In this document: one piece after another, positions 145-30,411 of the stretch
How positions within the stretch are numbered: position 1 is the first letter of the stretch
How the letters are laid out: every line of letters begins with the position of its first letter
Assembly (NCBI RefSeq): GCF_006345805.1
Contig: NC_043002.1
Span: 34,596,001-34,660,000 of the forward strand
Direction: 5' to 3'
DNA: 64,000 bases
From: Octopus sinensis
Taxonomy: Eukaryota
Translations under genes and position numbers: made by a program
Notes under the pieces: generated by a model
What the model was told of the DNA's origin: nothing
Database searches by the model: none
The model's input: the letters and a program-made list of their open reading frames with translations, nothing else

Positions 145-301
145 TGACATGCGATTCAGCGAAAATTTAGATAGATTAAATCTTTTGAACTTAGCTACTA
201 TATACATACGTACAAACATACACCAAAACATACATACATACATATATACATACGTACATGCATACATTCATACATACATACATACACAAAACAATACTCA
301 G

Positions 302-342
302 ATGAAATCTGAGGGTCGCGGGTTCAAATCCCTCTGCAGGCG
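302..342 (+). pseudogene. Inverted 3'-half of tRNA-Lys (intron end + exon 2)
   Basis: ATGAA-ATCTGAGGGTCGCGGGTTCAAATCCCTCTGCAGGCG, no 5' exon; followed by inverted copy of the 3' flank. Confidence 0.85.
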
Positions 343-1211
343 ACGAGTAATCTTTTTGGAAATTGTCCCAGAAGAAAAACAAATTGACTGGTTTCAAATA
401 TGGGAATTTAAATTTCAATAATTGAATTGATTGGGTGTGGAAACAACTGCAAGCAGGAATTTCTCTGCATGAATTCGGAAGTGCCCGAAATCGTCGAGTT
501 ATATCGACGGAATGCCCATATATTAACAATTGGTTGTGTCTTCATGGGGTCACTCTGCATGCTCACGCTAATGTATAATGACTATTCTTTACAGGTTTCT
601 ATTAAATGTGTGAGTGTGATTTTCATTCTTTACCAAAGGATATCTATCTATCTCTATATATATCTTGTTTCTGGCACTAATATAATAATATCTTAAATAA
701 TCAATGTAATAATCAATGGTGTTGTTCTTAATGCGCAGCAGTGGTGCAACAAAGTTTAATATATGAAAATACATGATAATTTAATAGGAGCCATTGTGTG
801 TGATTTTAGATGGCGGAAATGGATCTAGTACGATGTAGATATATGTTTCTTTGTAGACGAAAACTGTAGTCAGAGATCTATACTCATGCTTTGCAGAATT
901 ACCAGGGCCGTCAGTTAATTTACATGTGACAATGATTATATTTTACTTGTTTCAGTCAATAGACTGTGGCCGCCGAAGATGATGACATAGCGTGGTAGGA
1001 ATAAAAACAGCAAAAGACTGAATGCTAATGGAAATAGAAGAGCGTAAAAAATATTCGAAAGACAGAAATGACATTGCCAAGCTGGAAAATGTGATGGGCA
1101 GCAAGAAATGATTGAGCAAAAAGGGAAAACAATTGTAACATTTGCAGGGTGAAAATGTGTTCGACTAAGAAAAATGAAAAAAAATAAATGGTATTGCAAG
1201 AAAAAAATTGT

Positions 1212-1303
1212 CGCCCGCAGAGGGATTTGAACCCGCGACCCTCAGATTTCATAACCCGGCAGTTCTTAAAAGTCTGATGCTCTACCGACTGAGCTATGCG
1301 GGC
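1212..1303 (-). tRNA. tRNA-Lys-TTT: tRNA-Lys(UUU), 19-nt intron
   Basis: Perfect acceptor stem, A and B boxes, CTTTTA loop, downstream T7. Confidence 0.9.
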
Positions 1304-1554
1304 TTCCTCTCGTCCAGTTTAACTTTTAGACAAATGAAATATAATGGACTTAGCTACACATTCCTTGTTAACTGAAACGATTGTTGTATAAAGCTGTCAT
1401 CTGATATCTTACGTTACCCCGTAGTGATTACTAATAATTCCTTCACATTTACGCTGATATTTAATTTAGTAATTCGTTCACTCATCAAGTCCCAACCTGG
1501 TAAGTCATATTGGTCATTCAAAATGTATATACACTACTCTCTTTCAATTATAAT

Positions 1555-1635
1555 CTTTTCTACTCTAGGCACAAGGCCCGACATTTTTGTGGAGGGGGCC
1601 AGTCGATTAGATCGACCCCAGTACGCAGCTGGTAT
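1555..1635 (-). mobile_element. SINE 3' fragment embedded in the repeat module (also near 4255, 6780, 7260, 13780, 16450, 20630, 21110, 28710, 32540, 35270)
   Basis: TCTACTCTAGGCACAAGGCCCG...CAGTCGATTAGATCGACCCCAGTACGC, recognised from memory as an octopus SINE tail. Confidence 0.65.
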
Positions 1636-1689
1636 AATATAGCCATCATTTGCTTCAGTTGCATCACGTAATATCTCCTCCTCCTCTAC

Positions 1690-1713
1690 CATCACCACTA
1701 CAACCTCCATCAT

Positions 1714-1754
<41 letters not shown>

Positions 1755-1760
1755 GCAGCA
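1690..1760. repeat. (CAT)n(CAG)n compound microsatellite (paralog ~13915-13972)
   Basis: Direct inspection. Confidence 0.9.
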
Positions 1761-1779
1761 CCCGAACATTGCTGTCTGG

Positions 1780-2018
1780 AGTTCTAGGATTCAGAGAGCT
1801 GGTTACTTCGTCTCCTTGGCGTGTAGGTGACCGAGATCTCTGCAAATCCTCCTCAATGAGATGCCAGTTCATTGAAGGCATACACATTGCAGGTGAGTGG
1901 ACTAAAGTGGACATGATGTAAGTGTCTTGCTCAAGAATAGAATACGCTGCCCCATTCCGGTAATCGAAACCTCGGTCTTGGGAGCAACACTCTTACCACT
2001 CGGTCACGCGCCTTCACT
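1780..2018 (-). mobile_element. tRNA-derived SINE, degenerate (paralog ~13990-14230)
   Basis: AAGTGTCTTGCTCAAG core plus tRNA-like head with B-box remnant (minus GGTTTCGATTACC). Confidence 0.6.
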
Positions 2019-2020
2019 AT

Positions 2021-2217
2021 CCTTTCTACTGTAGGTATAGACACAAAGTTTGGGGTTTGTTCGAGGGTTGGGGTAGGTTAGTCGATTACATCGACCCAAG
2101 TCCTCAACTGGTACTTACTTCATTGTCGGAATTTGAGTTCAGAACGTAGAACCGGAGAAGCGTTACTAAGCATTTTGTTCGGCGTGCCAGTGATACTGCC
2201 AGTCCACCACAGCCTTA
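2021..2217 (-). mobile_element. tRNA-derived SINE, internally deleted (paralog ~14233-14433)
   Basis: GGAATTTGAGTTCAGAACG B-box region and TCGATTACATCGACCC motif; same family as 51740-51966. Confidence 0.65.
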
Positions 2218-2649
2218 TGCGCCTTCCGAATGATAAGGGAATAAAAAAATCAACTCAAAAATATATATCATGATCATATATCATGTATAATAATTGTCAG
2301 ATGCAGATGTTCCTTAAAAGGAATTATGTGAAAACAGGACATCGATTCCATTTCCATTTTCCATCCCAATAAATAAATTATATTTCACACATCTTAAGTC
2401 ATAACTCTTTAATTTCTTTTTCATTTATTTATAGAATTGTCAATATTTTGTAAGACTACTGCGACATTGATTACTGACAAAGTTACACTGAGTCTTAAAA
2501 ACTCCCTTCGGTCACGAATGACCAGAAGGTTCCTCTCCGAGTCACAAGTCCGGGCAAGGTTGTTTGTCGAATACCAGTCAGTCCTTTCCACAACGCTGAT
2601 GTTGTCCAAGAAAACGACAAAGCCGATTCAGTTTGGCAACAGTAATGTC

Positions 2650-2799
2650 GCAAATTATTTCTACTGCTAAGTGAACTGGAGCAATATGAAATGAAGTGTC
2701 TTGCTCAGAAACACAACTCATAGTCCCGGTCTAGGAATCGAACTTACAACATCACGATTGTAAGCCCAATGTTCTAACCACTGAGCCATGCATCTTCAC
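2650..2799 (-). mobile_element. tRNA-derived SINE 5' part (paralog ~14880-15016)
   Basis: AAGTGTCTTGCTCAG core; head GTGAAGATGCATGGCTCAGTGGTTAG...GTTCGATTCC on minus strand. Confidence 0.65.
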
Positions 2800-2967
2800 A
2801 AAAAGGTCATCGTAAAGCCACAACGGAGAATCGAACTTTGTATCTCTCAAATTATCTTGAAAACACCTAATAATTTATAAACATCTAATGTTAAAGTGGA
2901 AAAGTTATCAGAACATATTTCTATTCAGTTTGCAAAAATAGAATACTGTAGGATTGACTATTTGTTT

Positions 2968-2991
2968 TACTACTACTACTACTAACTACTA

Positions 2992-3068
<77 letters not shown>

Positions 3069-3111
3069 ACTACTACTACTACTACTACACACACACACAC
3101 GCACGTGTATG

Positions 3112-3173
<62 letters not shown>
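2968..3173. repeat. (TAC)n(AC)n(AT)n compound microsatellite (paralog 15187-15380)
   Basis: Direct inspection. Confidence 0.95.
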
Positions 3174-3176
<3 letters not shown>

Positions 3177-3674
3177 ATAATTAAGGGTAAAATCAATTAG
3201 CTATTAATTAATTTCACCAAGTATTTCTCAGTATGTAAAAACCATTCAAGGCGTATTCAAAATATTTCACGTGGATGGGAGGGGATGGTACATAGATTCT
3301 TTACTTGCACTGTTTGAATTCGCTGGCACTATCAGTTTGTTCGTCTGAGGTGATTCAGTCGGTTGAGTATGTTCATATTTTTATGCTTTCAAATCAAATA
3401 AGAAATGTTGAGCTGACGAAAGAAATGTCGAGTTTTAATTCGGCTAATCTAGAAACGTTGAAACGTTCTCAAATAATCTTTGTACTTGTGATATTTTGTT
3501 GTTTTCCCTCCATGTCTACGTGAGTTATTTTTGAGTAAGCACTTTCAGGGAGATTCTTCTTAAAGTAGTAGAAATGGCTAAACAACATTTTTTTGGCTGC
3601 AATTCTAAAAATTCAGTATGTGGCAAAGTAAATATTTTACTAAGCCCTTAATTATAAATGTATATATATATATG

Positions 3675-3749
<75 letters not shown>

Positions 3750-3943
3750 AGAAAAACAAGAGAAAAAAGAAAAAAATGACGTACAGAAGTTGATTATTCA
3801 TAGAAATTTAAATTCATGCAGAGAAATTCCTGCATACAGCTGTTTCCACACCTAATCAATTGAATTATGGAAATGTAAATTCCAATCTTTGAAACCAGTT
3901 TATTGGATATTTCTTCATGGACAACTTCCAAAAGAAAATTCGT

Positions 3944-4038
3944 CGCCTGCAGAGGGACTTGAACTCGCGACCCTCAGATTTCATAACTCGACTGTTCTTA
4001 AAGTCGATCTGATGCTCTAACGACTGAGCTATGCGGGC
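3944..4038 (-). pseudogene. tRNA-Lys pseudogene
   Basis: Insertion in anticodon arm plus acceptor, T-stem and D-loop substitutions. Confidence 0.8.
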
Positions 4039-4422
4039 TTCAACCGCTAGATTTAACTTTTAGACAAATGAAATATAATGGACTTAGCTACACATTCCTT
4101 GTTAAAGGAAACGATTGTTGTATAAAAGCTGTCATCTGATATCTTATGTACCCCTTAGTAGTTTCTAATAACTCCTTCAAATTTACTACTGATATTTAAT
4201 AAGTAATTCGTTCATTCATCAAGTCCCATCCTGGTAAAGTCATATTATAATCTTTTTACTCTAGGCACAAGGCCCGACATTTTTGTGGAGGGTGCCAGTC
4301 GAATAGATCGACCCAGAGCGCAGGTGGTATAATATAGCACTGTACCTATGCCTGTGTTTAGCCCCTTGTGGGTAATAAAGAAATAGGTATAATATAGCCC
4401 TCATCTGTTTCGGTTGCATCAC

Positions 4423-4658
4423 GAGAACTATGTTATGAAGTATTTTTCCATATTTCTCCTGAAGGAGTGTCATTCTTTGGACATTTGTAGAAGGGAAGAT
4501 CTTAAATTTCCTTCTCCACATGTATCTGGTATTTACTCAGCGAAACACCTAGAAACATGTGGAGAAGGAAAATTTAAGATCTTTCCCTTCTACAAATGTC
4601 CAAAGAATGACACCTCCTTTAGGAGAAATATGGAACAATACTTCGTAACAAAGTTCTC
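4423..4658. mobile_element. ~240-bp palindromic fold-back/MITE-like element
   Basis: GAGAACTATGTTATGAAG...CTTCGTAACAAAGTTCTC with ~110-bp inverted arms and a short loop. Confidence 0.8.
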
Positions 4659-5299
4659 ACACCAAATTAAATGGCTGAAAATATTTCTATAATAATTTGT
4701 ACTTAATGAAGGACCAATTTTGTAAAGTAAATTGTATTAAACACACACACACACACACCACACACACACACACACACATACACACAAACAGTACTACAGA
4801 TATGTACATATACGTAAAGAAAATCACTCTTTCATCCAGGTTCCCCAACCCATATCAGCACAGGTATCAACCATTGGATTGAAAGCCTCACCAGTTGCAA
4901 AAATGTAAACACATTTTTTTTTCTTTCCCTCCTCCTCCTTCCTTTCATTCCCCTTTCCCATTTGACACACTTTTCAGATACACAGACACCCACACACATG
5001 CGCACATACACGCGCACACACACACACACACACACACGCACGCGTGCGCGCGCACCCTCTCTCTCTCTCTCAGAAGACAATGATAAAAAAGAAATCCAAA
5101 TAATTATTTGAAAAGTGACATTTTGCTCCCCTTGGAGTGACCAGCTGGGTTTGCCATTTTTAAAAGCCAATAATCACTTACCATTGAAAGACTGACCAGC
5201 TGCAAAGATATCAGCCAATTCTTTTCTTCTTTCTCTCCTTCTTCTCCCTTTCCTTCTATTTTTCTTTAACACTACTTTAAGATACAAAAACACACACGA

Positions 5300-5334
<35 letters not shown>

Positions 5335-5584
5335 CTTTCTCCACATTCTTCACCCTCTTGTAGAATCACATATCTCTCCCCGCCCCTACACACTCAATAA
5401 TACTATAAATGGAGACAAAATTCTTGCAAAAGTTCAATTTGAAAACTCCACTAGAGTGGACGAAAGCGCTTTTATATGATATATGATTCATAACAAATGT
5501 AACATACTTATAAATATCTGTAAATATAAAACCAACCAGTCAATTGGACATTTCTTCTGCAACAATTTCCAAAAGAAAAAACGT

Positions 5585-5675
5585 CGCCCGCAGAGGGACT
5601 TGAACCCGCGACCCTCAGATTTCATAAAACGGTAGTTCTTAAAATCTGATGCTCTACCGACTGAACTATGCGGGC
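5585..5675 (-). pseudogene. tRNA-Lys-derived copy lacking C32; predicted spliced anticodon UUA
   Basis: TCAGA-TTTTAA-GAAC; 91 nt; C11>T. Confidence 0.6.
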
Positions 5676-5803
5676 TGACACACAAAACAACGAAAATTTA
5701 GATAGATTAAATCTTTTGAACTTAGCTACTATATACATACGTACATACATACATACATACATACATACATACATACATACATACACACACAAACAATACT
5801 CAG

Positions 5804-5838
5804 ATGAAATCTGAGGGTCGCGGGTTCAAATCCCTCTG
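5804..5838 (+). pseudogene. Inverted tRNA-Lys 3'-half, truncated in acceptor strand
   Basis: ATGAAATCTGAGGGTCGCGGGTTCAAATCCCTCTG. Confidence 0.8.
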
Positions 5839-6433
5839 ATTATTTAATCCATTGATATTTAAGATTTTCATTTTTTACCAAAGGACATCTATCTATATAA
5901 AATATCTGTTTTCTGGCACTAATATTACAATATCTTAAAATGTAATATCAATAGTGTTGCTCTTAATGCGCAGCAGTGGTGCAACGAAGTTTAATATATG
6001 AAAATACATGATAATATAAGAGGAGCCATTGTGTGTGATTTTAGATGGCTGAAATGGATCTAGTACCATGTAAATGTATGTTTCTTTATAGATGAAAACT
6101 GTAGTCAGAGATCTATACTCATGCTTCACAGAATTACCAGGACCGTCAGTTAATTTACTTGTGACAATGATTAAATTTTACTGTTTCAGTAATTAGACTG
6201 TGGCCGAAGATGATGACATAGCGTGGTAGGAATAAAAGAGCAAAAGACTGAATGCTAAGGGAAATAGAAGAGCGTAAAAATATTTCGAAAGACCGGAAGG
6301 ACATTGCCAAGCTGGAAAACGTGATGGGCAGCAAGAAAGGATTGAGCAAAAAGGAAAGCAATTGTAACAGTTGCCGGGTGAAAATGTGTTCGACTACGAG
6401 AAAAAAAAATGGTATTGCAAGAAAATAATATGT

Positions 6434-6525
6434 CACCCGCAGAGGGACTTGAACCTTCGACCCTCAGATTTCATAACACGACAGTTCTTAAAAGTCTGAT
6501 GCTCTACCGACTGAGCTATGCGGGC
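6434..6525 (-). tRNA. tRNA-Lys-TTT: tRNA-Lys(UUU) variant, 19-nt intron
   Basis: T72 (G.U pair); T-stem 5' strand GAAGG. Confidence 0.75.
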
Positions 6526-7039
6526 TTCCTCTCGTCCAGTTTAACTTTTAGGCAACTGAAATATTATGGACTTAGCTAGACATTCCTTGTTAACTGAAAC
6601 GATTGTTGCATAGAGCTGTCATCTGATATCTTATGTCACACCGTAGTGATTACTAATAATTCCTTCACATTAACTACTGGTATTAATATAGCAATTCGTT
6701 CACTCATCAAGTCCCATCCTGGTAAATTCATATTGGTCATTCAAAATGTATATACACTACTCACTTTCAATTATAATCTTTTCTACTCTAGGCACAAGGC
6801 CCGACATTTTTGTGGAGGGGGCCAGTCGAATAGTTCGACCCCAGTGCGCAGGTGGTATAATATAGATAGAAAGATGATAGAAAAAAAATGATGTACAGAA
6901 TGTTTTATTGAAAGAAATTCGAATTCCTGCTTACACTTGTTTCCACACCTAATGAATTCAATTCAAGAAATTTAAGTTCTCACATCTGAAAACAGTTATT
7001 GGGTATTTCTTCAAGGTCATTTTCGAAAAGAGAAGTCGT

Positions 7040-7130
7040 CGCCCGCAGACGGACTTAACCTGCGTCCCTCAGATTTCATCAATCTAAAGTTCTTAAAAGT
7101 CTGATCCTCTACCGACTGAGCTATACGGGC
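7040..7130 (-). pseudogene. tRNA-Lys pseudogene
   Basis: C56 deleted from T loop, several stem mismatches. Confidence 0.8.
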
Positions 7131-7398
7131 TGTCAAGCGTTTCAGCGAAAAGTTAGATAGATTAATCTTTTGAACCTATCTACTATATACATACGTACAT
7201 ATATACAACATACATACATACAATACTACTTGCAATGGTTACATTGCAATGGTTACATTTCTACTCGAGGCACAAGGCCCGACATTCCTGTAGAGGGGGC
7301 CAGTCGAATAGATCGACCCCAGTGCGCAGGTGTTTAGCCCATTGTGGGTAATAAAGAAATGGGTATAACATAGTCCTCATCTGTTTCAGTTGCATCAC

Positions 7399-7639
7399 GA
7401 GAACTATGTTATGAAGTATTTTTCCATATTTCTCCTGAAGGAGGTGTCACTCTTTGGACATTTGTAGAAGGAAAAGATCTTAAATTTTCCTTTTCCACAT
7501 GTATCTGGGTATTTACTCAGTGAAACACCTAGAAACATGTGGAGAAGGAAAATTTAAGAACTTTCCCTTCTACAAATGTCCAAAGAATGACACCTCCTTC
7601 AGGAGAAATATGGGAAAAATACTTCATAACAAAGTTCTT
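7399..7639. mobile_element. ~240-bp palindromic element
   Basis: Same inverted arms as 4423-4658. Confidence 0.8.
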
Positions 7640-7968
7640 CACCAAATTAAATGGCTAAAATGTTCCATAATATTTTGTACTAGATGAAGGACCAAATTTG
7701 TAAAGTAAATTGTATTAAACACACACCACACACACACACACACATATGCACACAAACAGTACTACAGATATGTACATATAAATAAATAAAAACACTCTTT
7801 CATCCAGATTCCCAACCCATATCAGCACAGGTATCAAACATTGGATTGAAAGACTCACCAGTTGCAAAAATGTAAACACATTTTTTTCTTCTTTCCCTCC
7901 TCCTCCTCCTTCCTTTCATTCCCTTTCCCATTTGACACTTCCTTTCAGATACACAGACACCCACACAC

Positions 7969-8025
<57 letters not shown>

Positions 8026-8548
8026 CTCTCTCTCACACAAGACAATGATAAAAAAAGAAATCAAGACAATTTTTTGAAAAGTGACATTTTGCTCCCCTTG
8101 GAGTGACCAACTGGGTTTGCCATTTCTAAAAGCCAATAATCACTTACCATTGAAAGACTGACCAGCTGCAAAGATATCAGCAAATTTTTTCTTCTTTCTC
8201 TCCTTCTTCTTCCTTTCCTTCGCTTTTTCTTTAAAACTTATTTAAGATACAAAAACACACACGATCTCTCTCTCTCACTTTCTCCCCATTCTTCACCCTC
8301 TCGTAGTATCTTATATCTCTCCCCGATCACTACACACTCAATAATACTATAAAAGGAGACAAAATTCCTGCAAAAGTTCAATTTGAAAACTCCACTAGAG
8401 TGGACCAAAGCGCTTTTATATGATATATGATTCATAAAAAATGTAACATACTAATAAATATCTGTAAATATAAAAGCATCCAGCAAATATAAAACCAACC
8501 AGTCAATTGGGCATTTTCTTCTTGGACAATTTCCAAAAGAAAAATTGT

Positions 8549-8640
8549 CGCCCGCAGAGGGACTTGAACCCGCGACCCTCAGATTTCATAACACGGCAGT
8601 TTTTAAAAGTCTGATGCTCTACCGACTGAGCTATGCGGGC
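8549..8640 (-). tRNA. tRNA-Lys-TTT: tRNA-Lys(UUU), 19-nt intron
   Basis: Consensus exons, downstream T5. Confidence 0.9.
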
Positions 8641-8820
8641 TGACATGCGATTCAACCAAAATTTAGATAGATTAGATCTTTTGAACTTAGCTAATATATA
8701 CCTACGTACATACATACACACAAGCATACATACATATATACATACATACATGCATACAAACATACATACATACATACATACATACATACATACATACATA
8801 CATACACAAACAATACTCAG

Positions 8821-8861
8821 ATGAAATCTGAGGGTCGCGGGTTCAAATCCTTCTGGGGGCG
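8821..8861 (+). pseudogene. Inverted tRNA-Lys 3'-half
   Basis: ATGAAATCTGAGGGTCGCGGGTTCAAATCCTTCTGGGGGCG. Confidence 0.8.
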
Positions 8862-8997
8862 ACGAGTTTTCTTTTGGAAATTGGTCCAGAAGAAATAACC
8901 AATTGACAGGTTTCCAACAAGGAGGGGGCCTGTCGAATAGATCGACTCCAGTACGCAGCTGGTTTAATATAGCCATCAGTTATTTCAGTTGCAACAC

Positions 8998-9173
8998 GAG
9001 AACTATGTTATGAAGTATTTTTCCATATTTCTCCTGAAGGAGGTGTCATTCTTTGGACATTTGTAGAAGGAAAAGATCTTAAATTTTCCTTCTCCACATG
9101 TATCTGGGTATTTACTCAGCGAAACACCTAGAAACAAGTGGAGAAGGAAAATTTAAGGTCTTTCCCTTCTACA
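8998..9173. mobile_element. Palindromic element, right arm truncated by deletion
   Basis: Left arm intact; ~290 bp missing relative to the paralog starting at 22862. Confidence 0.75.
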
Positions 9174-9307
9174 TTGGATTGAAAGCCTCACCAGTTGCAA
9201 AAATGTAAACACATTTTTTTTTCTTTCCCTCCTCCTCCTTCCTTTCATTCCCCTTTCCCATTTGACACACTCTTCAGATACACAGACACCCACACACACG
9301 CGCACAT

Positions 9308-9340
<33 letters not shown>

Positions 9341-9600
9341 TGCGCGCGCGCCCACGCACCCTCTCTCTCTCTCTCTCAGAAGACAATGATAAAAAGAAAT
9401 CCAGTTAATTATTTGAAAAGTGACATTTTGCTCCCCTTGGAGTGACCAGCTGGGTTTGCCATTTTTAAAAGCCAATAATCACTTACCATTGAAAGACTGA
9501 CCAGCTGAAAAGATAACAGCAAATTTTTTTCTTTCTCTCCTTCTTCTCCCTTTCCTTCTATTTTTCTTTAACACTACTTAAGATACACAAACACACACGA

Positions 9601-9631
<31 letters not shown>

Positions 9632-9880
9632 ACTTTCTCCCATTCTTCACCCTCTTGTAGAATCATATATCTCTCCCCGCCCCTACACACTCAATAATAC
9701 TACAAAAGGAGACAAAATTCTTGCAAAAGTTCAATTTGAAAACTCCACTAGAGTGGACGAATGCGCTTTTATATGATATATGTTTCATAACAAATGTAAC
9801 ATACTTATAAATATCTGTAAATAGAAAACCAACCAGTCAATTGGACATTTCTTCTGCAACAATTTCCAAAACAAAGTCGT

Positions 9881-9972
9881 CGCCCGCAGAGGGACTTGAA
9901 CCCGCGACCCTCAGATTTCATAACACGGTAGTTCTTAAAAGTCTGATGCTCCACCGACTTAGCTATGCGGGC
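9881..9972 (-). pseudogene. tRNA-Lys(UUU) copy with D-arm mutations
   Basis: C13>A and A21>G. Confidence 0.6.
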
Positions 9973-10092
9973 TGACACACAAAACAACGAAAATTTAGAT
10001 AGATTAAATCTTTTGAACTTAGCTACTATATACCTACGTACATACATACATACATACATACATACATACATACATACACAAACAATACTCAG

Positions 10093-10127
10093 ATGAAATC
10101 TGAGGGTCGCGGGTTCAAATCCCTCTG
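10093..10127 (+). pseudogene. Inverted tRNA-Lys 3'-half, truncated
   Basis: Same as 5804-5838. Confidence 0.8.
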
Positions 10128-10692
10128 ATTATTTAATCCCATTGATTATTTAAGATTTTCAGTTTTTTACCAAAGGACATCTATCTATATAAATATCTTG
10201 TTTTCTGGCACTAATAATACAATATCTTAAAATGTAATAATCAATAGTGTTGCTCTTAATGCGCAGCAGTGGTGCAACGAAGTTTAATATATGAAAATAC
10301 ATGATAATATAAGAGGAGCCATTGTGTGTGATTTTAGATGGCTGAAATGGATCTAGTACCATGTAAATGTATGTTTCTTTATAGATGAAAACTGTAGTCA
10401 GAGATCTATACTCATGCTTCACAGTATTACCAGGGCCGTCAGTTAATTTATATGTGACAATTATTATATATTACTTGTTTCAGTCATTAGACTGTGGCCG
10501 AAGATGATGACATAGCGTAGTAGGAATAAAACAGCAAAAGACTGAATGCTAATGGAAATAGAAAACGTGATGGGCAGCAAGAAAGTATTTAGCAAAAAGG
10601 GAAAGCAATTGTAACAGTTGCAGGGTGAAAATGTGTTCGACTAAGAAAAAAAAAAAAAAAAAAGAAATGGTATTGCATGATAAAAATTGTGT

Positions 10693-10784
10693 CGCCCGCA
10701 GAGGGACTTGAACCCGCGACCCTCAGATTTCATAACTAGACAGTACTAAAAAGTCTGATGCTCTACCGACTGAGCTATGCGGGC
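10693..10784 (-). tRNA. tRNA-Lys(UUU) variant with T37 (internal T5)
   Basis: Exons otherwise consensus; anticodon loop CTTTTT. Confidence 0.6.
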
Positions 10785-11166: not shown

Positions 11167-11204
<38 letters not shown>

Positions 11205-19513: not shown

Positions 19514-19649
19514 TGACACACAAAACAACGAAAATTTAGATAGATTAAATCTTTTGAACTTAGCTACTATATACATACGTACATACATACATACATACAT
19601 ACATACATACATACATACATACATACATACACACACAAACAATACTCAG

Positions 19650-19684
19650 ATGAAATCTGAGGGTCGCGGGTTCAAATCCCTCTG
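19650..19684 (+). pseudogene. Inverted tRNA-Lys 3'-half, truncated
   Basis: Same as 5804-5838. Confidence 0.8.
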
Positions 19685-20284: not shown

Positions 20285-20376
20285 CACCCGCAGAGGGACT
20301 TGAACCTTCGACCCTCAGATTTCATAACACGACAGTTCTTAAAAGTCTGATGCTCTACCGACTGAGCTATGCGGGC
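20285..20376 (-). tRNA. tRNA-Lys-TTT: tRNA-Lys(UUU) variant, 19-nt intron
   Basis: Same variant as 6434-6525. Confidence 0.75.
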
Positions 20377-20890
20377 TTCCTCTCGTCCAGTTTAACTTTT
20401 AGGCAACTGAAATATTATGGACTTAGCTAGACATTCCTTGTTAACTGAAACGATTGTTGCATAGAGCTGTCATCTGATATCTTATGTCACACCGTAGTGA
20501 TTACTAATAATTCCTTCACATTAACTACTGGTATTTAATATAGCAATTCGTTCACTCATCAAGTCCCATCCTGGTAAAGTAATATTGGTCATTCAAAATG
20601 TATATACACTACTCACTTTCAATTATAATCTTTTCTACTCTAGGCACAAGGCCCGACATTTTTGTGGAGGGGCCAGTCGAATAGTTCGACCCCAGTGCAC
20701 AGGTGGTATAATATAGATAGAAAGATGATAGAAAAAAATGACGTACAGAATGTTTTATTGAAAGAAATTCGAATTCCTGCTTACACTTGTTTCCACACCT
20801 AATGAATTCAATTCAAGAATTTTAAGTTCTCACATCTGAAAACAGTTAATTGGGTATTTCTTCAAGGTCATTTTCGAAAAGAGAAGTCGT

Positions 20891-20981
20891 CGCCCGCAGA
20901 CGGACTTAACCTGCGTCCCTCAGATTTCATCAATCTAAAGTTCTTAAAAGTCTGATCCTCTACCGACTGAGCTATACGGGC
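20891..20981 (-). pseudogene. tRNA-Lys pseudogene
   Basis: Same lesions as 7040-7130. Confidence 0.8.
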
Positions 20982-21251
20982 TGTCAAGCGTTTCAGCGAA
21001 AAGTTAGATAGATTAAATCTTTTGAACCTATCTACTATATACATACGTACATATATACAAACATACATACATACAATACTACTTGCAATGGTTACATTGC
21101 AATGGTTACATTTCTACTCGAGGCACAAGGCCCGACATTTCTGTAGAGGGGGCCAGTCGAATAGATCGACCCCAGTGCGCAGGTGTTTAGCCCATTGTGG
21201 GTAATAAAGAAATGGGTATAACATAGTCCTCATCTGTTTCAGTTGCATCAC

Positions 21252-21491
21252 GAGAACTATGTTATGAAGTATTTTTCCATATTTCTCCTGAAGGAGGTGT
21301 CACTCTTTGGACATTTGTAGAAGGAAAAGATCTTAAATTTTCCTTTTCCACATGTATCTGGGTATTTACTCAGTGAAACACCTAGAAACATGTGGAGAAG
21401 GAAAATTTAAGATCTTTCCCTTCTACAAATGTCCAAAGAATGACACCTCCTTCAGGAGAAATATGGAAAAATACTTCATAACAAAGTTCTT
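21252..21491. mobile_element. ~240-bp palindromic element
   Basis: Inverted arms as above. Confidence 0.8.
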
Positions 21492-22404
21492 CACCAAATT
21501 AAATGGCTAAAAATGTTTCTATAATATTTTGTACTAGATGAAGGACCAAATTTGTAAAGTAAATTGTATTAAACACACACACACACACACACACATATGC
21601 ACACAAACAGTACTACACATATGTACATATAAATAAATAAAAACACTCTTTCATCCAGATTCTACAACCCATATCAGCACAGGTATCAAACATTGGATTG
21701 AAAGACTCACCAGTTGCAAAAATGTAAACACATTTTTTCTTCTTTCCCTCCTCCTCCTCCTTCCTTTCATTCCCTTTCCCATTTGACACTTCCTTTCAGA
21801 TACCCAGACACCCACACACACGCACAAACACACACACACACACACACACACCCACACACACACACACACACTCTCTCTCTCTCTCTCACACAAGACAATG
21901 ATAAAAAAAGAAATCAAGACAATTTTTTGAAAAGTGTCATTTTGCTCCCCTTGGAGTGACCAACTGGGTTTGCCATTTCTAAAAGCCAATAATCACTTAC
22001 CATTGAAAGACTGACCAGCTGCAAAGATATCAGCAAATTTTTTCTTCTTTCTCTCCTTCTTCCTTTCCTTCTCTTTTTCTTTAAAACTTATTTAAGATAC
22101 AAAAACACACACGATCTCTCTCTCTCTCTCTCACTTTCTCCCCATTCTTCACCCTCTTGTAGTATCTTAAAATCTCTCCCCGCCCCTACACACTCAATAA
22201 TACTATAAAAGGAGACAAAATTCCTGCAAAAGTTCAATTTGAAAACTCCACTAGAGTGGACCAAAGCGCTTTTATATGATATATGATTCATAAAAAATGT
22301 AACATACTAATAAATATCTGTAAATATAAAACCATCCAGCAAATATAAAACCAACCAGTCAATTGGACATTTTCTTCTTGGACAATTTCCAAAAGAAAAA
22401 TCGT

Positions 22405-22496
22405 CGCCCGCAGAGGGACTTGAACCCGCGACCCTCAGATTTCATAACACGACAGTTCTTAAAAGTCTGATGCTCTACCGACTGAGCTATGCGGGC
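22405..22496 (-). tRNA. tRNA-Lys-TTT: tRNA-Lys(UUU), 19-nt intron
   Basis: Consensus exons, downstream T5. Confidence 0.9.
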
Positions 22497-22684
22497 TGAC
22501 ATGCGATTCCACGAAAATTTAGATAGATTAGATCTTTTGAACTTAGCTAATATATACCTACGTACATACATGCACACAAGCATACATACATATATACATA
22601 CATACATGCATACAAACATACATACATACATACATACATACATACATACATACATACATACATACATACACAAACAATACTCAG

Positions 22685-22725
22685 ATGAAATCTGAGGGTC
22701 GCGGGTTCAAATCCTTCTGGGGGCG
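22685..22725 (+). pseudogene. Inverted tRNA-Lys 3'-half
   Basis: Paralog of 8821-8861. Confidence 0.8.
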
Positions 22726-22861
22726 ACGAGTTTTCTCTTGGAAATTGGTCCAGAAGAAATAACCAATTGACAGGTTTCCAACAAGGAGGGGGCCAGTCGA
22801 ATAGATCGACTCCAGTACGCAGCTGGTTTAATATAGCCATCAGTTATTTCAGTTGCAACAC

Positions 22862-23101
22862 GAGAACTATGTTATGAAGTATTTTTCCATATTTCTCCTG
22901 AAGGAGGTGTCATTCTTTGGACATTTGTAGAAGGGAAAGATCTTAAATTTTCCTTCTCCACATGTATCTGGGTATTTACTCAGCGAAACACCTAGAAACA
23001 TGTGGAGAAGGAAAATTTAAGATCTTTCCCTTCTACAAATGTCCAAAGAATGACTCCTCCTTCAGGAGAAATATGGAAAAATACTTCATAACAAAGTTCT
23101 C
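22862..23101. mobile_element. ~240-bp palindromic element
   Basis: Near-perfect inverted arms, flanked by CAC on both sides. Confidence 0.8.
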
Positions 23102-23434
23102 CACCAAATTAAATGACTGAAAATATTTCTATAATATTTGTACTAGATGAAGGACCAAATTTGTAAAGTAAATTGTATTAAACACACACACACACACACA
23201 CATACACACAAACAGTACTACACATATGTACATATACGTAAAGAAAATCACTCTTTCATCCAGCTTCTCCAACCCATATCAGCACAGGTATCAAACATTG
23301 GATTGAAAGCCTCACCAGTTGCAAAAATGTAAACACATTTTTTTTTCTTTCCCTCCTCCTCCTTCCTTTCATTCCCCTTTCCCATTTGACACACTTTTCA
23401 GATACACAAACACCCACACACACGCGCACATACA

Positions 23435-23476
<42 letters not shown>

Positions 23477-23738
23477 CGCGCGCGCCCGCGCACCCTCTCT
23501 CTCTCTCTCTCAGAAGACAATGATAAAAAAGAAATCCAGTTAATTATTTGAAAAGTGACATTTTGCTCCCCTTGGAGTGACCAGCTGGGTTTGCCATTTT
23601 TAAAAGCCAATAATCACTTACCATTGAAAGACTGACCAGCTGAAAAGATAACAGCAAATTTTTTCTTCTTTCTCTCCTTCTTCTCCCTTTCCTTCTATTT
23701 TTCTTTAACACTACTTTCAGATACACAAACACACAAGA

Positions 23739-23780
<42 letters not shown>

Positions 23781-24030
23781 ACTTTCTCCCCATTCTTCAC
23801 CCTCTTGTAGAATCATATATCTCTCCCCGCCCCTACACACTCAATAATACTATAAAAGGAGACAAAATTCTTGCAAAAGTTCAATTTGAAAATTCCACTA
23901 GGGTGGACGAATGCGCTTTTATATGATATATGATTCATAACAAATGTAACATACTTATAAATATCTGTAAATATAAAACCAACAAGTCAATTGGACATTT
24001 CTTCTGCAACAATTTCCAAAACAAAAACGT

Positions 24031-24122
24031 CGCCCGCAGAGGGACTTGAACCCGCGACCCTCAGATTTCATAACACGGTTGTTCTTAAAAGTCTGATGCT
24101 CTACCGACTGAGCTATGCGGGC
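24031..24122 (-). tRNA. tRNA-Lys-TTT: tRNA-Lys(UUU), 19-nt intron
   Basis: Consensus exons, downstream T5. Confidence 0.9.
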
Positions 24123-24242
24123 TGACACACAAAACAACGAAAATTTAGATAGATTAAATCTTTTGAACTTAGCTACTATATACCTACGTACATACATACA
24201 TACATACATACATACATACATACATACACAAACAATACTCAG

Positions 24243-24277
24243 ATGAAATCTGAGGGTCGCGGGTTCAAATCCCTCTG
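24243..24277 (+). pseudogene. Inverted tRNA-Lys 3'-half, truncated
   Basis: Same as 10093-10127. Confidence 0.8.
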
Positions 24278-24840
24278 ATTATTTAATCCCATTGATTATT
24301 TAAGATTTTCATTTTTTACCAAAGGACATCTATCTATATAAATATCTTGTTTTCTGGCACTAATAATACAATATCTTAAAATGTAATAATCAATAGTGTT
24401 GCTCTTAATGCGCAGCAGTGGTGCAACGAAGTTTAATATATGAAAATACATGATAATATAAGAGGAGCCATTGTGTGTGATTTTAGATGGCTGAAATGGA
24501 TCTAGTACCATGTAAATGTATGTTTCTTTATAGATGAAAACTGTAGTCAGAGATCTTTACTCATGCTTCACAGAATTACCAGGGCCGTCAGTTAATTTAC
24601 ATGTGACAATTATTATATATTATTTGTTTCAGTCATTAGACTGTGGCCGAAGATGATGACATAGCATGGTAGGAATAAAACAGCAAAAGACTGAATGCTA
24701 ATGGAAATAGAAAACGTGATGGGCAGCAAGAATGGATTGAGCAAAAAGGGAAAGCAATTGTAACAGTTGCAGGGTGAAAATGTGTTCGACTAAGAAAAAA
24801 AAAAAAAAAAAGAAATGGTATTGCATGATAAAAATTGTGT

Positions 24841-24932
24841 CGCCCGCAGAGGAACTTGAACCCGCGACCCTCAGATTTCATAACTAGACAGTTCTAAAAA
24901 GTCTGATGCTCTAACGACTGAGCTATGCGGGC
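24841..24932 (-). pseudogene. tRNA-Lys pseudogene with T37
   Basis: CTTTTT loop, G19>T, C61>T. Confidence 0.7.
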
Positions 24933-25308
24933 TTCCGTCCGTTCAGTTTAACTTTTAGACAAATGAAATATTATGGACTTAGCTAGACATTCCTTGTTAA
25001 CTGAAACGATTGTTGTATAAAGCTGTCATCTGATATCTTATGTCACCCCGTAGTGATTACTAATAATTCCTTCACATTTACTACTGATATCTAATATAGT
25101 AATTCGTTCACTCATCAAGTCCCATCCTGGTAAAGTCATACTTGTCATACAAAATGTATATACACTACTCTCTTTCAATTATAATCATAACAATGTTCTC
25201 CACCAAATTAAATGGCTTAAAATATTTCTATAATAATTTGTACTAGATGAAGGACCAATTTTGTAAAGTAAACTGTATTAAACACACAGACACACACACA
25301 GACACACA

Positions 25309-25344
<36 letters not shown>

Positions 25345-25577
25345 CATACAAACAGTACTACACATATGTACATATACATAAATATTAATAATCTTTCATC
25401 CAGATTCTCCAACGCATATCAGCACAGGAATCAAACACTGGATTGAAAGATTTATACAGTGGTATAAATGTCAACACAATTATTTCTTCTTCTTCTCTTT
25501 CTTCTATCTTCCTTCTCCAGCGACAACCCTTCCAGATACACAGGCACCCACACACACATGTGCACACACACGTGCAC

Positions 25578-25647
<70 letters not shown>

Positions 25648-26146
25648 CAATGACAAAAAGAAATCCAGACAATTTTTTGAGAAGTGACATTTTGTCCCCC
25701 TTGAAGTGGCCAATTGAGTTTGCCATTTCTAAAAGCCAAGAGTCACTTACCATTGAAAGACTGACTAGCTGCAAAGATATCAACAAATTTTTTCTTCTTT
25801 CTCTCCTTCTTCCTTTCCTTCTCTTTTTCTTTAACACACCTTTAAGATACAAAAACACACATGATCTCTCTCTCTCACGTTCTCCCCATTCTTCACCCTC
25901 TTGTAGTATCTTATATCTCTCCCCGCCCCTACACACACAATAATGCTATAAAAGGAGACAAAATTCCTGCAAAAGTTCAATTTGAAAACTCCACCAGAGT
26001 GGACCAAAGCGCTTTTATATGATATATGATTCATAAAAAATGTAACATACTAATAAATATCTGTAAGTATAAAACCATCCAGCAAATATAAAACCAACCA
26101 GTCAATTGGACATTTCTTCTGCGACAATTTCCAAAAGAAAAATCGT

Positions 26147-26238
26147 CGCCCGCAGAGGGACTTGAACCCGCGACCCTCAGATTTCATAACGCAGCAGTTC
26201 TTAAAAGTCTGATGCTCTACCGACTGAGCTATGCGGGC
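26147..26238 (-). tRNA. tRNA-Lys-TTT: tRNA-Lys(UUU), 19-nt intron
   Basis: Consensus exons, downstream T5. Confidence 0.9.
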
Positions 26239-26626
26239 TTCCATCCGTTCAGTTTAACTTTTAGACAAATGAAATATTATGGACTTAGCTAGACATTCCT
26301 TGTTAACTGAAACGATTGTGGTATAAAGCTGTCATCTGATATCTTATGTCACCCCGTAGTGATTACTAATAATTCCTTCACATTTACTACTGATATTTAA
26401 TATTGTAATTCGTTCACTCATCAAGTCCCATCCTGGTAAAGTCATACTTGTCATACAAAATGTATATACACTACTCTCTTTCAATTATAATCATAACAAT
26501 GTTCTCCACCAAATTAAATGGCTTAAATTATTTCTATAATAATTTGTACTAGATGAAGGACCAATTTTGTAAAGTAAACTGTATTAAACACATACACACA
26601 CACACACAAACACACAGGCACACACA

Positions 26627-26666
<40 letters not shown>

Positions 26667-26940
26667 ACTACACATATGTACATATACATAAATATTAATA
26701 ATCTTTCATCCAGATTCTCCAACGCATATCAGCACAGGAATCAAACACTGGATTGAAAGAGTTATACAGTGGTATAAATGTCAACACAATTATTTCTTCT
26801 TCTTCTCTTTCTTCTATCTTCCTTCTCCAGCGACAACCCTTCCAGATACACAGGCACCCACACACACATGTGCACACACACACACACACACATGTGCACA
26901 CACACACGTGCACACATACATGTGCACACATACATGTGCA

Positions 26941-26979
<39 letters not shown>

Positions 26980-27197
26980 CAATGATAAAAAGAAATCCAG
27001 ACAATTTTTTGAGAAGTGACATTTTGCCCCCCTTGAAGTGGTCAGTTGAGTTTGCCATTTCTAAAAGCCAAGAAATATTTTCTATTGAAAGACTCACCAG
27101 TTGTAAAAATGTAAACACATTTTTTTCTTCTTTCTCTCCTCCTCCTTCCTTTCATTCCCTTTCCCATTTGACACCTTATTCAGATACACAGACACCC

Positions 27198-27250
<53 letters not shown>

Positions 27251-27744
27251 CTCTCTCTCCCTCCACAAGACAAGGATAAAAAGAAATCCAGACAATTTTT
27301 TGAAAAGGGACATTTTGCTCCCCTTGGAGTGACCAGCTAGGTTTGCCATTTCTAAAAGCCAAGAATCCCTTACCATTGAAAGACTGACCAGCTGCAAAGA
27401 TATCAGTAATTTTTCTTCTTTCTCTCCTCCTTCTTCTTCGTGTCCTCTTTTTCTTTAACACTTATTTAAGATACAAAAACACACGATCTCTCTCTCTCAC
27501 TTTCTCCCCATTCTTCACCCTCTTGTAGTATCTTATATCTCTCCCCGATCCCTACACACTCAATAATACTATAAAAGGAGACAAAATTCCTGCAAAAGTT
27601 CAATTTAAACCTCCAATAGAGTGGACGAAAGCCTTTTATGATATATGATCCATAAAAAATGTAGCATACTAATAAATATCTGTAAATATAAAACCATCCA
27701 GCAATATAAAACCAACCAGTCAATTGGACCAAAAGAAAAATCGT

Positions 27745-27836
27745 CGCCCGCAGAGGGACTTGAACCCGCGACCCTCAGATTTCATAACTCGGCATTTCTT
27801 AAAAGTCTGATGCTCTACCGACTGAGCTATGCTGAC
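27745..27836 (-). pseudogene. tRNA-Lys pseudogene
   Basis: 5' acceptor strand GTCAGCA gives two mismatches. Confidence 0.75.
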
Positions 27837-28361
27837 TGACACATGATTCAACGAAAATTTAGATAGATTAAATCGAATTTTTTTGAATTCGGAAATGCCC
27901 AACGTCGTCGAGTCATATCGAGGGAATGCCCATATATTAACAATTGGCTGTGTTTTCATGGCGTCACTCTGTTAGCTTACGCTAATGTATATTGACTATT
28001 CTTTACAGGTTTCTATTAAATGTGTGATTGTGATTTTCATTCTTTATCAAAGGATATCTATCTCTCTATATATCTTGTTTTCTGGCACTAATATCATAAT
28101 ATCTTATATAATCAATGGTGTTGTTCTTAATGCGCAGTTGTGGTGCAACGAAGTTTAATATATGAAAATACATGATAATATAAGAGGAGCCATTGTGTGT
28201 GATTTTAGATGGCTGAAATGGATCTAGTACCATTTAAATATATGTCTCTTTATAGATGAAAACTGTAGTCAGAGATCTATACTCATGCTTCAGAGAGTTA
28301 CAGGGTGAAAATGTATTCGACCACGAGAAAAATGAAATGGTATTGCAAGAAAATAATATGT

Positions 28362-28454
28362 CGCCCGCAGAGGGACTTAAAAACCGCGACCCTCAGATTT
28401 CATAACTCGACAGTTCTTAAAAGTCTGATGCTCTACCGACTGAGCTATGCGGGC
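28362..28454 (-). pseudogene. tRNA-Lys pseudogene
   Basis: B box destroyed (GGTTTTTAAG). Confidence 0.8.
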
Positions 28455-28877
28455 TTCCGGCCGCCCAGTTTAACTTTTAGACGATTGAAATATTATGGAC
28501 TTAGCTACACATTCCTTGTTAACTGAAACGATTGTTGTATAAAGCCGTCATCTGGTATCTTACGTCACCTCGTAGTGATTACTAATAATTCCTTCACATT
28601 TACTGCTGATATTTAATGTAGTAATTCGTTCACTCATCAAGTCCCATCCTGGTAAAGTCAAATTGGTCATTCAAAATGTATATACACTACTTCTTTCAAT
28701 TATAATCTTTTCTACCCTAGGCACAAGGCCCGGCATTTTTGTGGAGGGGGCCAGTCGAATAGATCGACCCCAGTGCGCAGGTGGTATAATATAGCACTGT
28801 ACCTATGCCTATGTTTAGCCCCTTGTGGGTAATAAAGAACAGGTATAAATAGCCCTCATCTGTTTCAGTTGGGACAC

Positions 28878-29113
28878 GAGAACTATTATGAAGTATTTTT
28901 CCATATTTCTCCTGAAAGAGGTGTCATTCTTTGGACATTTGTAGAAAGAAAAGATCTTAAATTTTCCTTCTCACATGTATCTGGGTATTTACTCAGCGAA
29001 ACACCTAGAAACATGTGGAGAAGGAAAATTTAAGATCTTTCCCTTCTACAAATGTCCAAAGAATGACACCTCCTTCAGGAGAAATATGGAACATACTTCA
29101 TAACAAAGTTCCC
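28878..29113. mobile_element. ~240-bp palindromic element, more diverged
   Basis: Inverted arms as above. Confidence 0.75.
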
Positions 29114-29454
29114 CACCAAATTAAATAGCTGAAAATATTTCTATAATATTTTGTACTAGATGAAGGACCAATTTGTAAAGTAAAATTGTATTAAACACAC
29201 ACACCACACACACACACACACACACCACCACATGCACACAAACAGTACTACACATATGTACATATACAAAATAAAAACTCTTTCATCCAGATTCTCCATC
29301 CCATATCAGCACAGGTATCACACATTGGATTGAAAGACTCACCAGTTGCAAAATGTAAACACATTTTTTTTCTTGTTTCCCTCCTCCTCCTCCTTCCTTT
29401 CATTCCCGTTCCCATTTGACACTTCCTTTCAGATACACAGACACCAAACACACG

Positions 29455-29494
<40 letters not shown>

Positions 29495-30023
29495 AGACAA
29501 TAATATGAAAGAAATCCAGACAATTTATTTAAAAGTGACATTTTGCTCCGCTGGAGTGACCAGCTGGTTGCCCATTTCTAAAAACTAAGAATTACTTACC
29601 ATTGAAGACTGACCAGCTGCAAGATATCAGCAATTTTTTCTTCTTTCTCTCCTTCTTCTTTCTTTCCTTCTCTTTTCTTAACACTTCTTTAAGATACAAA
29701 AAAACACACGATCTCTCTCTCTCTCACTCACTTTCTCCCCATTCTTCACCCTTGTAGTATCTTATATCTCTCCCCGCCCCTACACACTCAATAATACTAT
29801 ATAAGGAGACAAAATTCCTGCAAAAGTTCAATTTGAAAACTCCACAGGGTGGACGAAAGCGCTTTATATGATATATGATTCATAAAATCATGTAACATGC
29901 TAGTAATTATCTGTACATATAAACATACAATACATATCTGTAAATATAAAACCATCCAGCAAATATAAAACCAACCAGTCAATTGGTCATTTCTTCTGCA
30001 ACAATTTCCAAAAGAAAATTTGT

Positions 30024-30115
30024 CGGCCGCAGATGGACTTGAACCCGTGACCCTCAGATTTCATAACACGGCAGTTCTTAAAAGCCTGATGCTCTACCGA
30101 CTGAGCTATGCGGGC
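30024..30115 (-). pseudogene. tRNA-Lys pseudogene
   Basis: G71>C, C63>A, G49>A, A31>G. Confidence 0.8.
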
Positions 30116-30371
30116 TGACATACGCGTCATGGAAATTTAGATAGATTAAATCTTTTGAACTTAGCTACTAGATACATACGTACAACATACATACATACAT
30201 ACATACATACATACATACACTACATGCATGCATGCATACATGCATGCATGCATGCATGCATGCATGCATACATACAATACATCATACATGCACACATACA
30301 TACATACATACATACATACATACATACATACATACATACATACATACATACTACACACACCAAATACTCAG

Positions 30372-30411
30372 ATGAATCTGAGGGTCGCGGGTTTAAGTCC
30401 CTCTGCGGGCG
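30372..30411 (+). pseudogene. Inverted tRNA-Lys 3'-half
   Basis: ATGAATCTGAGGGTCGCGGGTTTAAGTCCCTCTGCGGGCG. Confidence 0.8.

What the first reader, a model, noticed from the sequence alone, without database searches (positions are those of the whole stretch)
296..30411. Ten inverted 3'-half tRNA genes with a fold-back junction that rebuilds an anticodon stem
Seen: plus-strand fragments at 302, 5804, 8821, 10093, 12525, 18090, 19650, 22685, 24243 and 30372 all begin about 5 nt before the 3' splice site, sit upstream of a full gene across an (ATAC)n tract, and keep the B box (degenerate at 30372). The junction CTCAGAT-GAA-ATCTGAG is a perfect hairpin giving a TCAGA/TCTGA stem with a U-GAA-A loop. 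Units without the half (31210-31225) carry CTCAGATC in the ancestral flank, suggesting a template switch. Inference: extra TFIIIC sites, dsRNA-forming antisense arms, or halves of a split tRNA.
Basis: partly seen in the sequence, partly recalled or inferred. Interest (0 to 1): 0.7.

Follow-up and report, generated by a model that had tools for sequence, protein, structure and literature searches.

The report
Fossil DNA-repair inversion in tRNA array
Ten backwards half-copies of a lysine tRNA gene in this animal's tRNA array share one identical join and are pieces of a roughly 190-base inverted duplication that likely arose once by fold-back DNA repair and was copied along as the array grew; they are decaying and are likely not working genes.

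Summary
All ten plus-strand 3' halves are real. They are the left end of a ~190-nt inverted copy of an intron-containing tRNA-Lys(UUU) 3' half plus ~150 nt of its downstream trailer. The junction occurs 20 times in the genome, only in this cluster and its probable second-haplotype copies, so it arose once. The hairpin fits snap-back end joining: the 7-mer already sits in the uninverted flank, and random joins give such a stem in 0.36% of cases. It 'rebuilds' the anticodon stem only because any fold-back copies the complement; its loop has no anticodon. Halves have no A box and no 5' partner. Their exon changed as fast as the co-inverted trailer (10/36 vs 13/52), the B box fastest, and four deletions eroded the segment. 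Against pure neutrality: the 17-nt hairpin shows no substitution (p about 0.01). Expression is untested. The scan noted this genome's Lys(UUU) intron before on other DNA (e1-8920345), but not these halves.

The parts
53..36281 (-). Tandem array of 28 intron-containing tRNA-Lys(UUU) genes and degenerate copies (19-nt intron at 37/38); it continues about 11 kb upstream of the window
297..477 (+). Type A unit: junction hairpin 297-313, 3' half to 342 (G59A, G69A), co-inverted trailer to 477; partner gene 53-144
5799..5838 (+). Type B unit: hairpin and half cut off after G67; partner gene 5585-5675
8816..8917 (+). Type C unit: hairpin, half with G59A, C63T, C68G, and ~55 nt of trailer; partner gene 8549-8640
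10088..10127 (+). Type B unit; partner gene 9881-9972
12520..12701 (+). Type A unit, a copy of 297-477 at 12.2 kb distance; partner gene 12277-12368
18085..18186 (+). Type C unit (also G73A); partner gene 17818-17909
19645..19684 (+). Type B unit; partner gene 19422-19513
22680..22781 (+). Type C unit; partner gene 22405-22496
24238..24277 (+). Type B unit; partner gene 24031-24122
30367..30559 (+). Type D unit: longest form of the inverted segment (about 190 nt), B box C56T; partner gene 30024-30115
30539..30562 (+). Far junction of the inverted segment, spanned by an 8-nt direct repeat (loop-out type signature), followed by a MITE-like terminal repeat at about 30572-30605
27860..27900 (+). 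Descendant unit in which ATAC tract, hairpin and half are deleted and only the far end of the inverted segment remains
31175..31230 (+). Uninverted (ancestral) flank carrying the 7-mer at 31217-31223
33925..33985 (+). Uninverted (ancestral) flank carrying the 7-mer at 33970-33976
33606..33790 (-). Forward gene 3' half plus trailer of the kind that was copied; its intron ends in GATGAA, which gives the 3-nt primer

Best explanation
The halves are remnants of a ~190-nt inverted duplication of a tRNA-Lys(UUU) 3' half plus trailer that likely arose once by snap-back end joining (template switching) and was then likely copied passively with the tandem array. Shown: the segment's extent, the single shared junction, the 7-mer in the uninverted flank, the 3-nt microhomology, and the decay. 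Inferred: a broken or stalled strand ending in the intron's last bases folded back on the gene's own 3-bp inverted repeat (3-nt loop), copied four more bases, and so matched 7 nt of the upstream flank, where it joined. A ~30-nt deletion between imperfect direct repeats then brought the arm next to the ATAC tract. Unequal crossing-over multiplied the unit, and four lineages (A-D) lost pieces of it. The hairpin is a repair scar, not an anticodon arm.
For: Segment runs ~150 nt past the T-run terminator, 84-87% identical to forward trailers. Junction found 20 times, all within C6:34.53-34.97 Mb, none with 1-3 mismatches, control 0. The 7-mer is in 4 of the 14 same-flank units that lack the junction and in unbroken contigs of two other runs. 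Simulated joins give a stem of 7 bp or more in 222 of 62,419, and in 12 of 4,412 with microhomology. The three SD-MMEJ criteria of PMC5728401 are met (passages). The far junction has an 8-nt direct repeat, 2% by chance. Half exon vs co-inverted trailer distance: 0.111/0.096, 0.099/0.136, 0.147/0.104; linked genes' exon 2 differ by 0.4-1.3% among A, B, C. Tree count 10/36 vs 13/52, B box 5/11. No A box upstream of any of 22 halves (2-4 mismatches) against 0-1 in all 65 genes. Hairpin deleted in 2 descendant units.
Against: The 17-nt hairpin and a 32-nt run around it show no substitution in the 21 copies that keep it: 0 of 23 changes, p about 0.012; permutation 0.002-0.004 for the longest run on a noisier alignment. 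The predicted intermediate (junction without the 30-nt deletion) was not found. D-linked partner genes are themselves degenerate (about 6%), so that control is weak for D. A 3-nt microhomology join also fits plain MMEJ. Transcription and TFIIIC binding were not measured.
Confidence: 0.8

Rival explanations
1. Same origin, but the junction has since come under selection as a cis element: read-through RNA folds the antisense half back on the partner gene into a long duplex (small-RNA or editing substrate), or the DNA hairpin marks the unit.
For: 0 substitutions in 32 nt around the hairpin, p about 0.01. A minus-strand read-through from 345 to 53 folds into a long stem, -135.9 kcal/mol in total, part of it from the repeat tract. 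The two deletions that spread (types B and C, 16 of 22 copies) both spare the hairpin.
Against: Two other deletions remove the hairpin. The pairing region itself has accumulated mismatches and type B cuts it to 36 nt. The tree is shallow (length 0.24). Changes are also clumped in the linked upstream flank, where a 27-nt stretch has 2 variable sites, though that stretch may itself be constrained. Template switching can maintain hairpins without selection (PMC8794818, abstract and opening text).
Confidence: 0.09
2. The halves serve as extra TFIIIC (B-box-only) sites that raise factor density or insulate the array.
For: B-box consensus intact in 18 of 22 halves; G59A, shared by 19 halves, falls on the free position. 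No A box, as an ETC-like site would have. Incidental binding is plausible.
Against: The B box is the most changed part (5 of 11 sites, 4 on consensus positions). All 3 type D halves carry the C56T change that PMC3395662 says abolishes TFIIIC binding (passages). Retention of 18/22 is the same as in the full genes, 51/65. The region already has 65 full genes.
Confidence: 0.06
3. The segment is a retro-copy: a cleaved pre-tRNA 3' fragment reverse-transcribed and inserted in antisense.
For: It starts near the 3' splice site; an earlier scan note describes an antisense tRNA piece co-inserted with a SINE elsewhere in this genome (e1-10333174, unchecked).
Against: It keeps 5-6 intron bases rather than starting at the splice site, runs ~140 nt beyond the first T-run, and has no poly(A) and no target-site duplication; the far side does not resume the left flank.
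Confidence: 0.03
4. The halves are 3' partners of a split (trans-spliced) or permuted tRNA-Lys.
For: Each contains the 3' splice site and, in types A, C and D, a full-length 3' exon.
Against: No 5'-only half among 87 hits in 234 kb. No exon 1 followed by the leader's complement in the genome, 0 matches. No A box. Opposite strand to the partner gene. Acceptor strand broken or missing in 19 of 22 (A: G69A; B: truncated; C: C68G or deletion). The loop is 5 nt with no U33 or anticodon.
Confidence: 0.01

Closest known systems
Snap-back SD-MMEJ junctions (Khodaverdian et al. 2017, PMC5728401, passages read; Yu and McVey 2010, PMC2943611, listing only)
   Same: Short inverted primer repeat plus newly made microhomology, leaving a longer inverted repeat across the join; a loop-out type direct repeat at the other end.
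   Different: Described at induced breaks in Drosophila, with small deletions and insertions. Here it is one end of a ~190-nt inverted duplication in a germline tRNA array, inferred from sequence alone.
Template-switch mutations that create perfect hairpins (Monttinen and Loytynoja 2022, PMC8794818, abstract and opening text read)
   Same: A reverse-complement copy made in one step gives a perfect stem, and the same process can maintain it.
   Different: There the switch returns to the original strand locally. Here the strand goes on into another site, and the stem is not part of a functional RNA.
ETC sites of yeast (PMC3395662, passages read)
   Same: B box without A box, next to divergent genes.
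   Different: ETC sites are defined by TFIIIC occupancy and a conserved extended B box; here the B box is the least conserved part.
Archaeal split tRNAs and algal/archaeal permuted tRNAs (Chan et al. 2011, PMC3218864, passages read)
   Same: A 3' half that begins just before the 37/38 splice site, near a related gene.
   Different: No separate 5' half, no promoter, no GC-rich leader, opposite strand, damaged acceptor strand.

Membership tests
SD-MMEJ-consistent snap-back junction | Repeat motif of at least 4 bp across the join | tested here: met
   7-bp inverted repeat; criterion from PMC5728401
SD-MMEJ-consistent snap-back junction | Break-distal end of the motif within 30 bp of the join | tested here: met
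   Arms are 3 nt apart
SD-MMEJ-consistent snap-back junction | Primer repeat and microhomology repeat of at least 1 bp each | tested here: met
   Primer of 3 bp in the gene itself (2 bp for the commoner intron end), 4 bp more from the flank
SD-MMEJ-consistent snap-back junction | Made by alternative end joining (polymerase theta) rather than a replication template switch | not testable with these tools
   Old event; both routes leave this scar
ETC site | B-box consensus without A box | tested here: met
   18 of 22 halves match; no A box
ETC site | B box conserved beyond neutral expectation | tested here: not met
   5 changes in 11 sites vs 13 in 52 of the trailer
ETC site | TFIIIC bound without Pol III | not testable with these tools
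   Needs ChIP
ETC site | Yeast 10-base 3' extension of the B box | not tested
   Consensus letters were not in the passages read
Split (trans-spliced) tRNA | A separately encoded 5' half | tested here: not met
   None in 234 kb; genome-wide only the leader-complement pattern was searched
Split (trans-spliced) tRNA | Leader that pairs with the partner's trailer | tested here: not met
   0 matches in G000; leader is an AT-rich repeat
Split (trans-spliced) tRNA | Own promoter for the 3' half | tested here: not met
   No A box 20-100 nt upstream of the B box; upstream type-3 elements were not scanned
Split (trans-spliced) tRNA | Joined mature product | not testable with these tools
   Needs tRNA sequencing
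Permuted tRNA | 3' half upstream of the 5' half on the same strand, 1-85 nt apart | tested here: not met
   Opposite strands, 107-307 nt apart; definition from PMC3218864
Retroposed tRNA fragment | Ends at the Pol III terminator, poly(A) tail, target-site duplication | tested here: not met
   Runs ~140 nt past the T-run; no tail or duplication

The most novel reading that the evidence does not exclude
A repair scar has been co-opted: the invariant 32-nt junction anchors a fold-back between each half and its partner gene, so read-through RNA from the array forms long tRNA-sequence duplexes, and the halves also exchange alleles with convergent neighbours (G59A at 1212 and 13434; G53T plus the B-box-killing C56T at 28362), tuning how many Lys(UUU) genes are active.
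Probability: 0.08. Interest if true: 0.6.

Novelty: new member of a known kind. Interest (0 to 1): 0.16.

Why it matters
On the best reading it matters little as biology. It is a clean natural example of a snap-back repair scar in an animal tRNA gene, with source, target and four decay lineages all preserved, and a useful marker for the history of this array. It also warns that a hairpin which 'rebuilds' a tRNA stem is what any fold-back produces. If the hairpin's invariance or the allele sharing with neighbour genes held up across species, it would show inverted tRNA fragments regulating or eroding a tRNA array, which I did not find described.

Tried and rejected
No RNA holder listed by the run search; this is no evidence on expression. 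Contigs of X5 and X8 do not cover 285-296, X8 and X9 gave nothing on the ancestral flank, and no contig showed the predicted pre-deletion intermediate; none of this proves absence. Gene conversion between halves and neighbour genes: 5 shared variants at copy level, permutation P 0.19, copies not independent, so not claimed. Co-folding exon 1 with a half did not discriminate: the half's hairpin forms, but the control without the arm also misses the true anticodon stem. mis-typed the 8 type B halves as A; its between-type distances were dropped and redone. One search counted alignment artefacts near indels; redone with columns within 2 of an indel masked. One half with an internal deletion (C6:34588713) was left out of the pairwise distances. 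ARAGORN's TTA/TTT/AAG calls come from reading the intron as loop and were not used. No host gene was identified: 1 of 4 ORFs sent to Pfam matched, an LTR retrotransposon fragment (4 of 23 ORFs sent). A five-term ETC paper search gave 0. The look-up by sequence in earlier findings gave nothing.
Full report
Setting. The window is G000:C6:34596001-34660000 of a 2.72-Gb animal genome; earlier scan notes call it an octopus (not tested by me). Bases 53-36281 hold 28 minus-strand tRNA hits. They read as tRNA-Lys(UUU) with a 19-nt intron after position 37. A gapped pattern finds 111 such genes or copies in the genome, most with introns of varied sequence and several without an intron (100 listed). All 65 full copies in the 234 kb that I examined have an A box with 0-1 mismatches.

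Observation. It is confirmed. Ten plus-strand 3' halves lie at the stated places, each head-to-head with a full gene across an (ATAC)n tract. The B box is intact in 9 of 10, the hairpin is perfect in 9 of 10, and the 7-mer stands in the no-half flank at 31217 and 33970.

What it is. The halves are not free-standing. The inversion goes on into the gene's downstream trailer: 30371-30559 is the reverse complement of 33790-33606 (85%), and 301-477 matches likewise. So the unit is a ~190-nt inverted duplication: 5-6 intron bases, exon 2, the T-run terminator and ~140 nt more. The junction occurs 20 times in the genome, all between C6:34.53 and 34.97 Mb, with no further copy at up to 3 mismatches. 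BLAST of the three clusters finds 22 halves: these 20, the one-base-gap copy at 30372, and one that lost the arm. The two outside clusters each end at an assembly gap, and the flank of one is 98.3-99.5% identical to this cluster's flank over 31 kb. They are probably a second haplotype, so about 11 halves per haplotype (inference). The halves fall into four lineages: A (3), B (8, cut after G67), C (8) and D (3). The window itself is built of 4-6 kb direct duplications. Contigs of two runs with other organism labels, from one study, cover the flank side of the junction, and contigs of two further runs bridge the far junction, so an assembly artefact is unlikely.

How the junction arose. Of 35 genes with this upstream flank, 21 carry the junction, 4 carry the uninverted flank with the 7-mer followed by CG, and 10 carry neither. 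The uninverted flank is also spanned by contigs of two other runs. The forward gene at 33749 has an intron ending in GATGAA, which gives 3 nt of microhomology with the flank and a 3-bp inverted repeat with a 3-nt loop in the gene itself. A strand ending there can fold back, copy four more bases, and then match 7 nt of the flank. This meets the three criteria for a snap-back SD-MMEJ junction in PMC5728401 (passages). Simulated joins between the same source and target give a stem of 7 bp or more in 222 of 62,419 cases, and in 12 of 4,412 that have microhomology. The 7-mer would lie within 45 nt of a given point by chance 0.2% of the time. The far junction is spanned by an 8-nt direct repeat, 2% by chance, which fits the loop-out class; the target sequence there is unknown, so this is weaker. 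A ~30-nt deletion between imperfect direct repeats must also have happened on the left; the intermediate was not found. tRNA genes pause forks in yeast (PMC8194067, passages), a plausible trigger but only an analogy. The 'rebuilt anticodon stem' needs no further explanation: copying the 3' strand of a stem backwards yields its 5' strand. The result folds as a 7-bp stem with a 3-nt loop at -6.3 kcal/mol, or a 5-nt loop in tRNA register, with no anticodon.

Is it kept by selection? Mostly not. Between lineages the half exon differs by 0.111, 0.099 and 0.147, and the co-inverted trailer by 0.096, 0.136 and 0.104. The linked full genes' exon 2 differs by 0.004-0.013 among A, B and C, and by about 0.06 with D, whose partners are degenerate (one half with an internal deletion left out). 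On a tree of all 22 halves the exon has 10 changes in 36 sites, the near trailer 13 in 52, and the B box 5 in 11. Four of those five hit consensus positions, including C56T, which PMC3395662 states abolishes TFIIIC binding (passages). None of the 22 has an A box. The acceptor strand is broken or missing in 19 of 22. Four separate deletions trimmed the segment (types B and C, C6:34534350, window 27860), and two of them removed the hairpin.

The result against my reading. The hairpin took none of the 23 changes in the region shared by A, C and D (p about 0.012), within an invariant run of 32 nt (permutation 0.002-0.004 on a noisier alignment). A shallow tree (length 0.24), clumped changes, the fact that the hairpin was picked because it is perfect, hairpin self-correction by template switching (PMC8794818, abstract and opening text) and conversion from 65 full genes could each contribute, but I have not shown that they do. 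The two deletions that spread both spare the hairpin. In two lineages a half and its convergent neighbour gene share derived alleles, but the overall test is not significant (P 0.19).

Comparison with known systems. It works like a snap-back or template-switch scar and meets the sequence criteria. It is not a split or permuted tRNA as defined in PMC3218864 (passages): no lone 5' half, no complementary leader, wrong strand. It has the layout of an ETC site but not the conservation; incidental TFIIIC binding remains possible and untested. It is not a retro-copy. Searches for a description in print found nothing on these halves (listings and abstract starts only; some searches were for background). 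No supplements were read.

Verdict. A real, well-preserved but ordinary rearrangement scar, amplified with a tRNA array. Confidence 0.8, interest 0.16. A co-opted fold-back element is not excluded (0.08).

Noticed in passing
G000 genome-wide; window 53-36281: tRNA-Lys(UUU) genes carry 37/38 introns of many different sequences and lengths, beside several intron-free copies. Noted before by the scan (e1-8920345).
   Followed up: partly
window 53-36281: Most array genes have a C50-U64 mismatch in the T stem; 32198 and C6:34529468 have G64, which pairs.
   Followed up: no
window 1212-1303, 13434-13525, 28362-28454: Genes facing a half tail-to-tail share its derived alleles (G59A; G53T with C56T, matching the half at C6:34534350): possible conversion, not significant overall.
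   Followed up: partly
about 20-48 nt upstream of the partner genes, e.g. window 163-190: An AT-rich 27-nt stretch is nearly invariant across units while the 20 nt next to the gene vary; it may be the TFIIIB footprint (the role is recalled, not tested).
   Followed up: no
G000:C6:34557494-34588698 vs 34930001-34961404; 34518821-34546638 vs window 16943-42725: Long near-identical copies ending at assembly gaps, probably an uncollapsed second haplotype.
   Followed up: partly
window 31245-31276, 30572-30605, 493-521: A 26-30 nt terminal repeat shared with a dispersed ~280-nt MITE-like element; it points inward in no-half units and outward beyond the far junction.
   Followed up: partly
window 31327-31520, 34100-34300: A dispersed repeat with degenerate TTAGGG-like runs, 1,578 first-look candidates in the genome.
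   Followed up: no
window 4423-4658 and five other units: A ~240-nt self-inverted element repeated in the array's spacers.
   Followed up: no
window 61376-62212: Fragment of an LTR retrotransposon pol (RNase H-like and integrase zinc-binding domains).
   Followed up: no
window 28000-36000: Many single-base indels against the probable allelic copy suggest lower assembly accuracy here.
   Followed up: no
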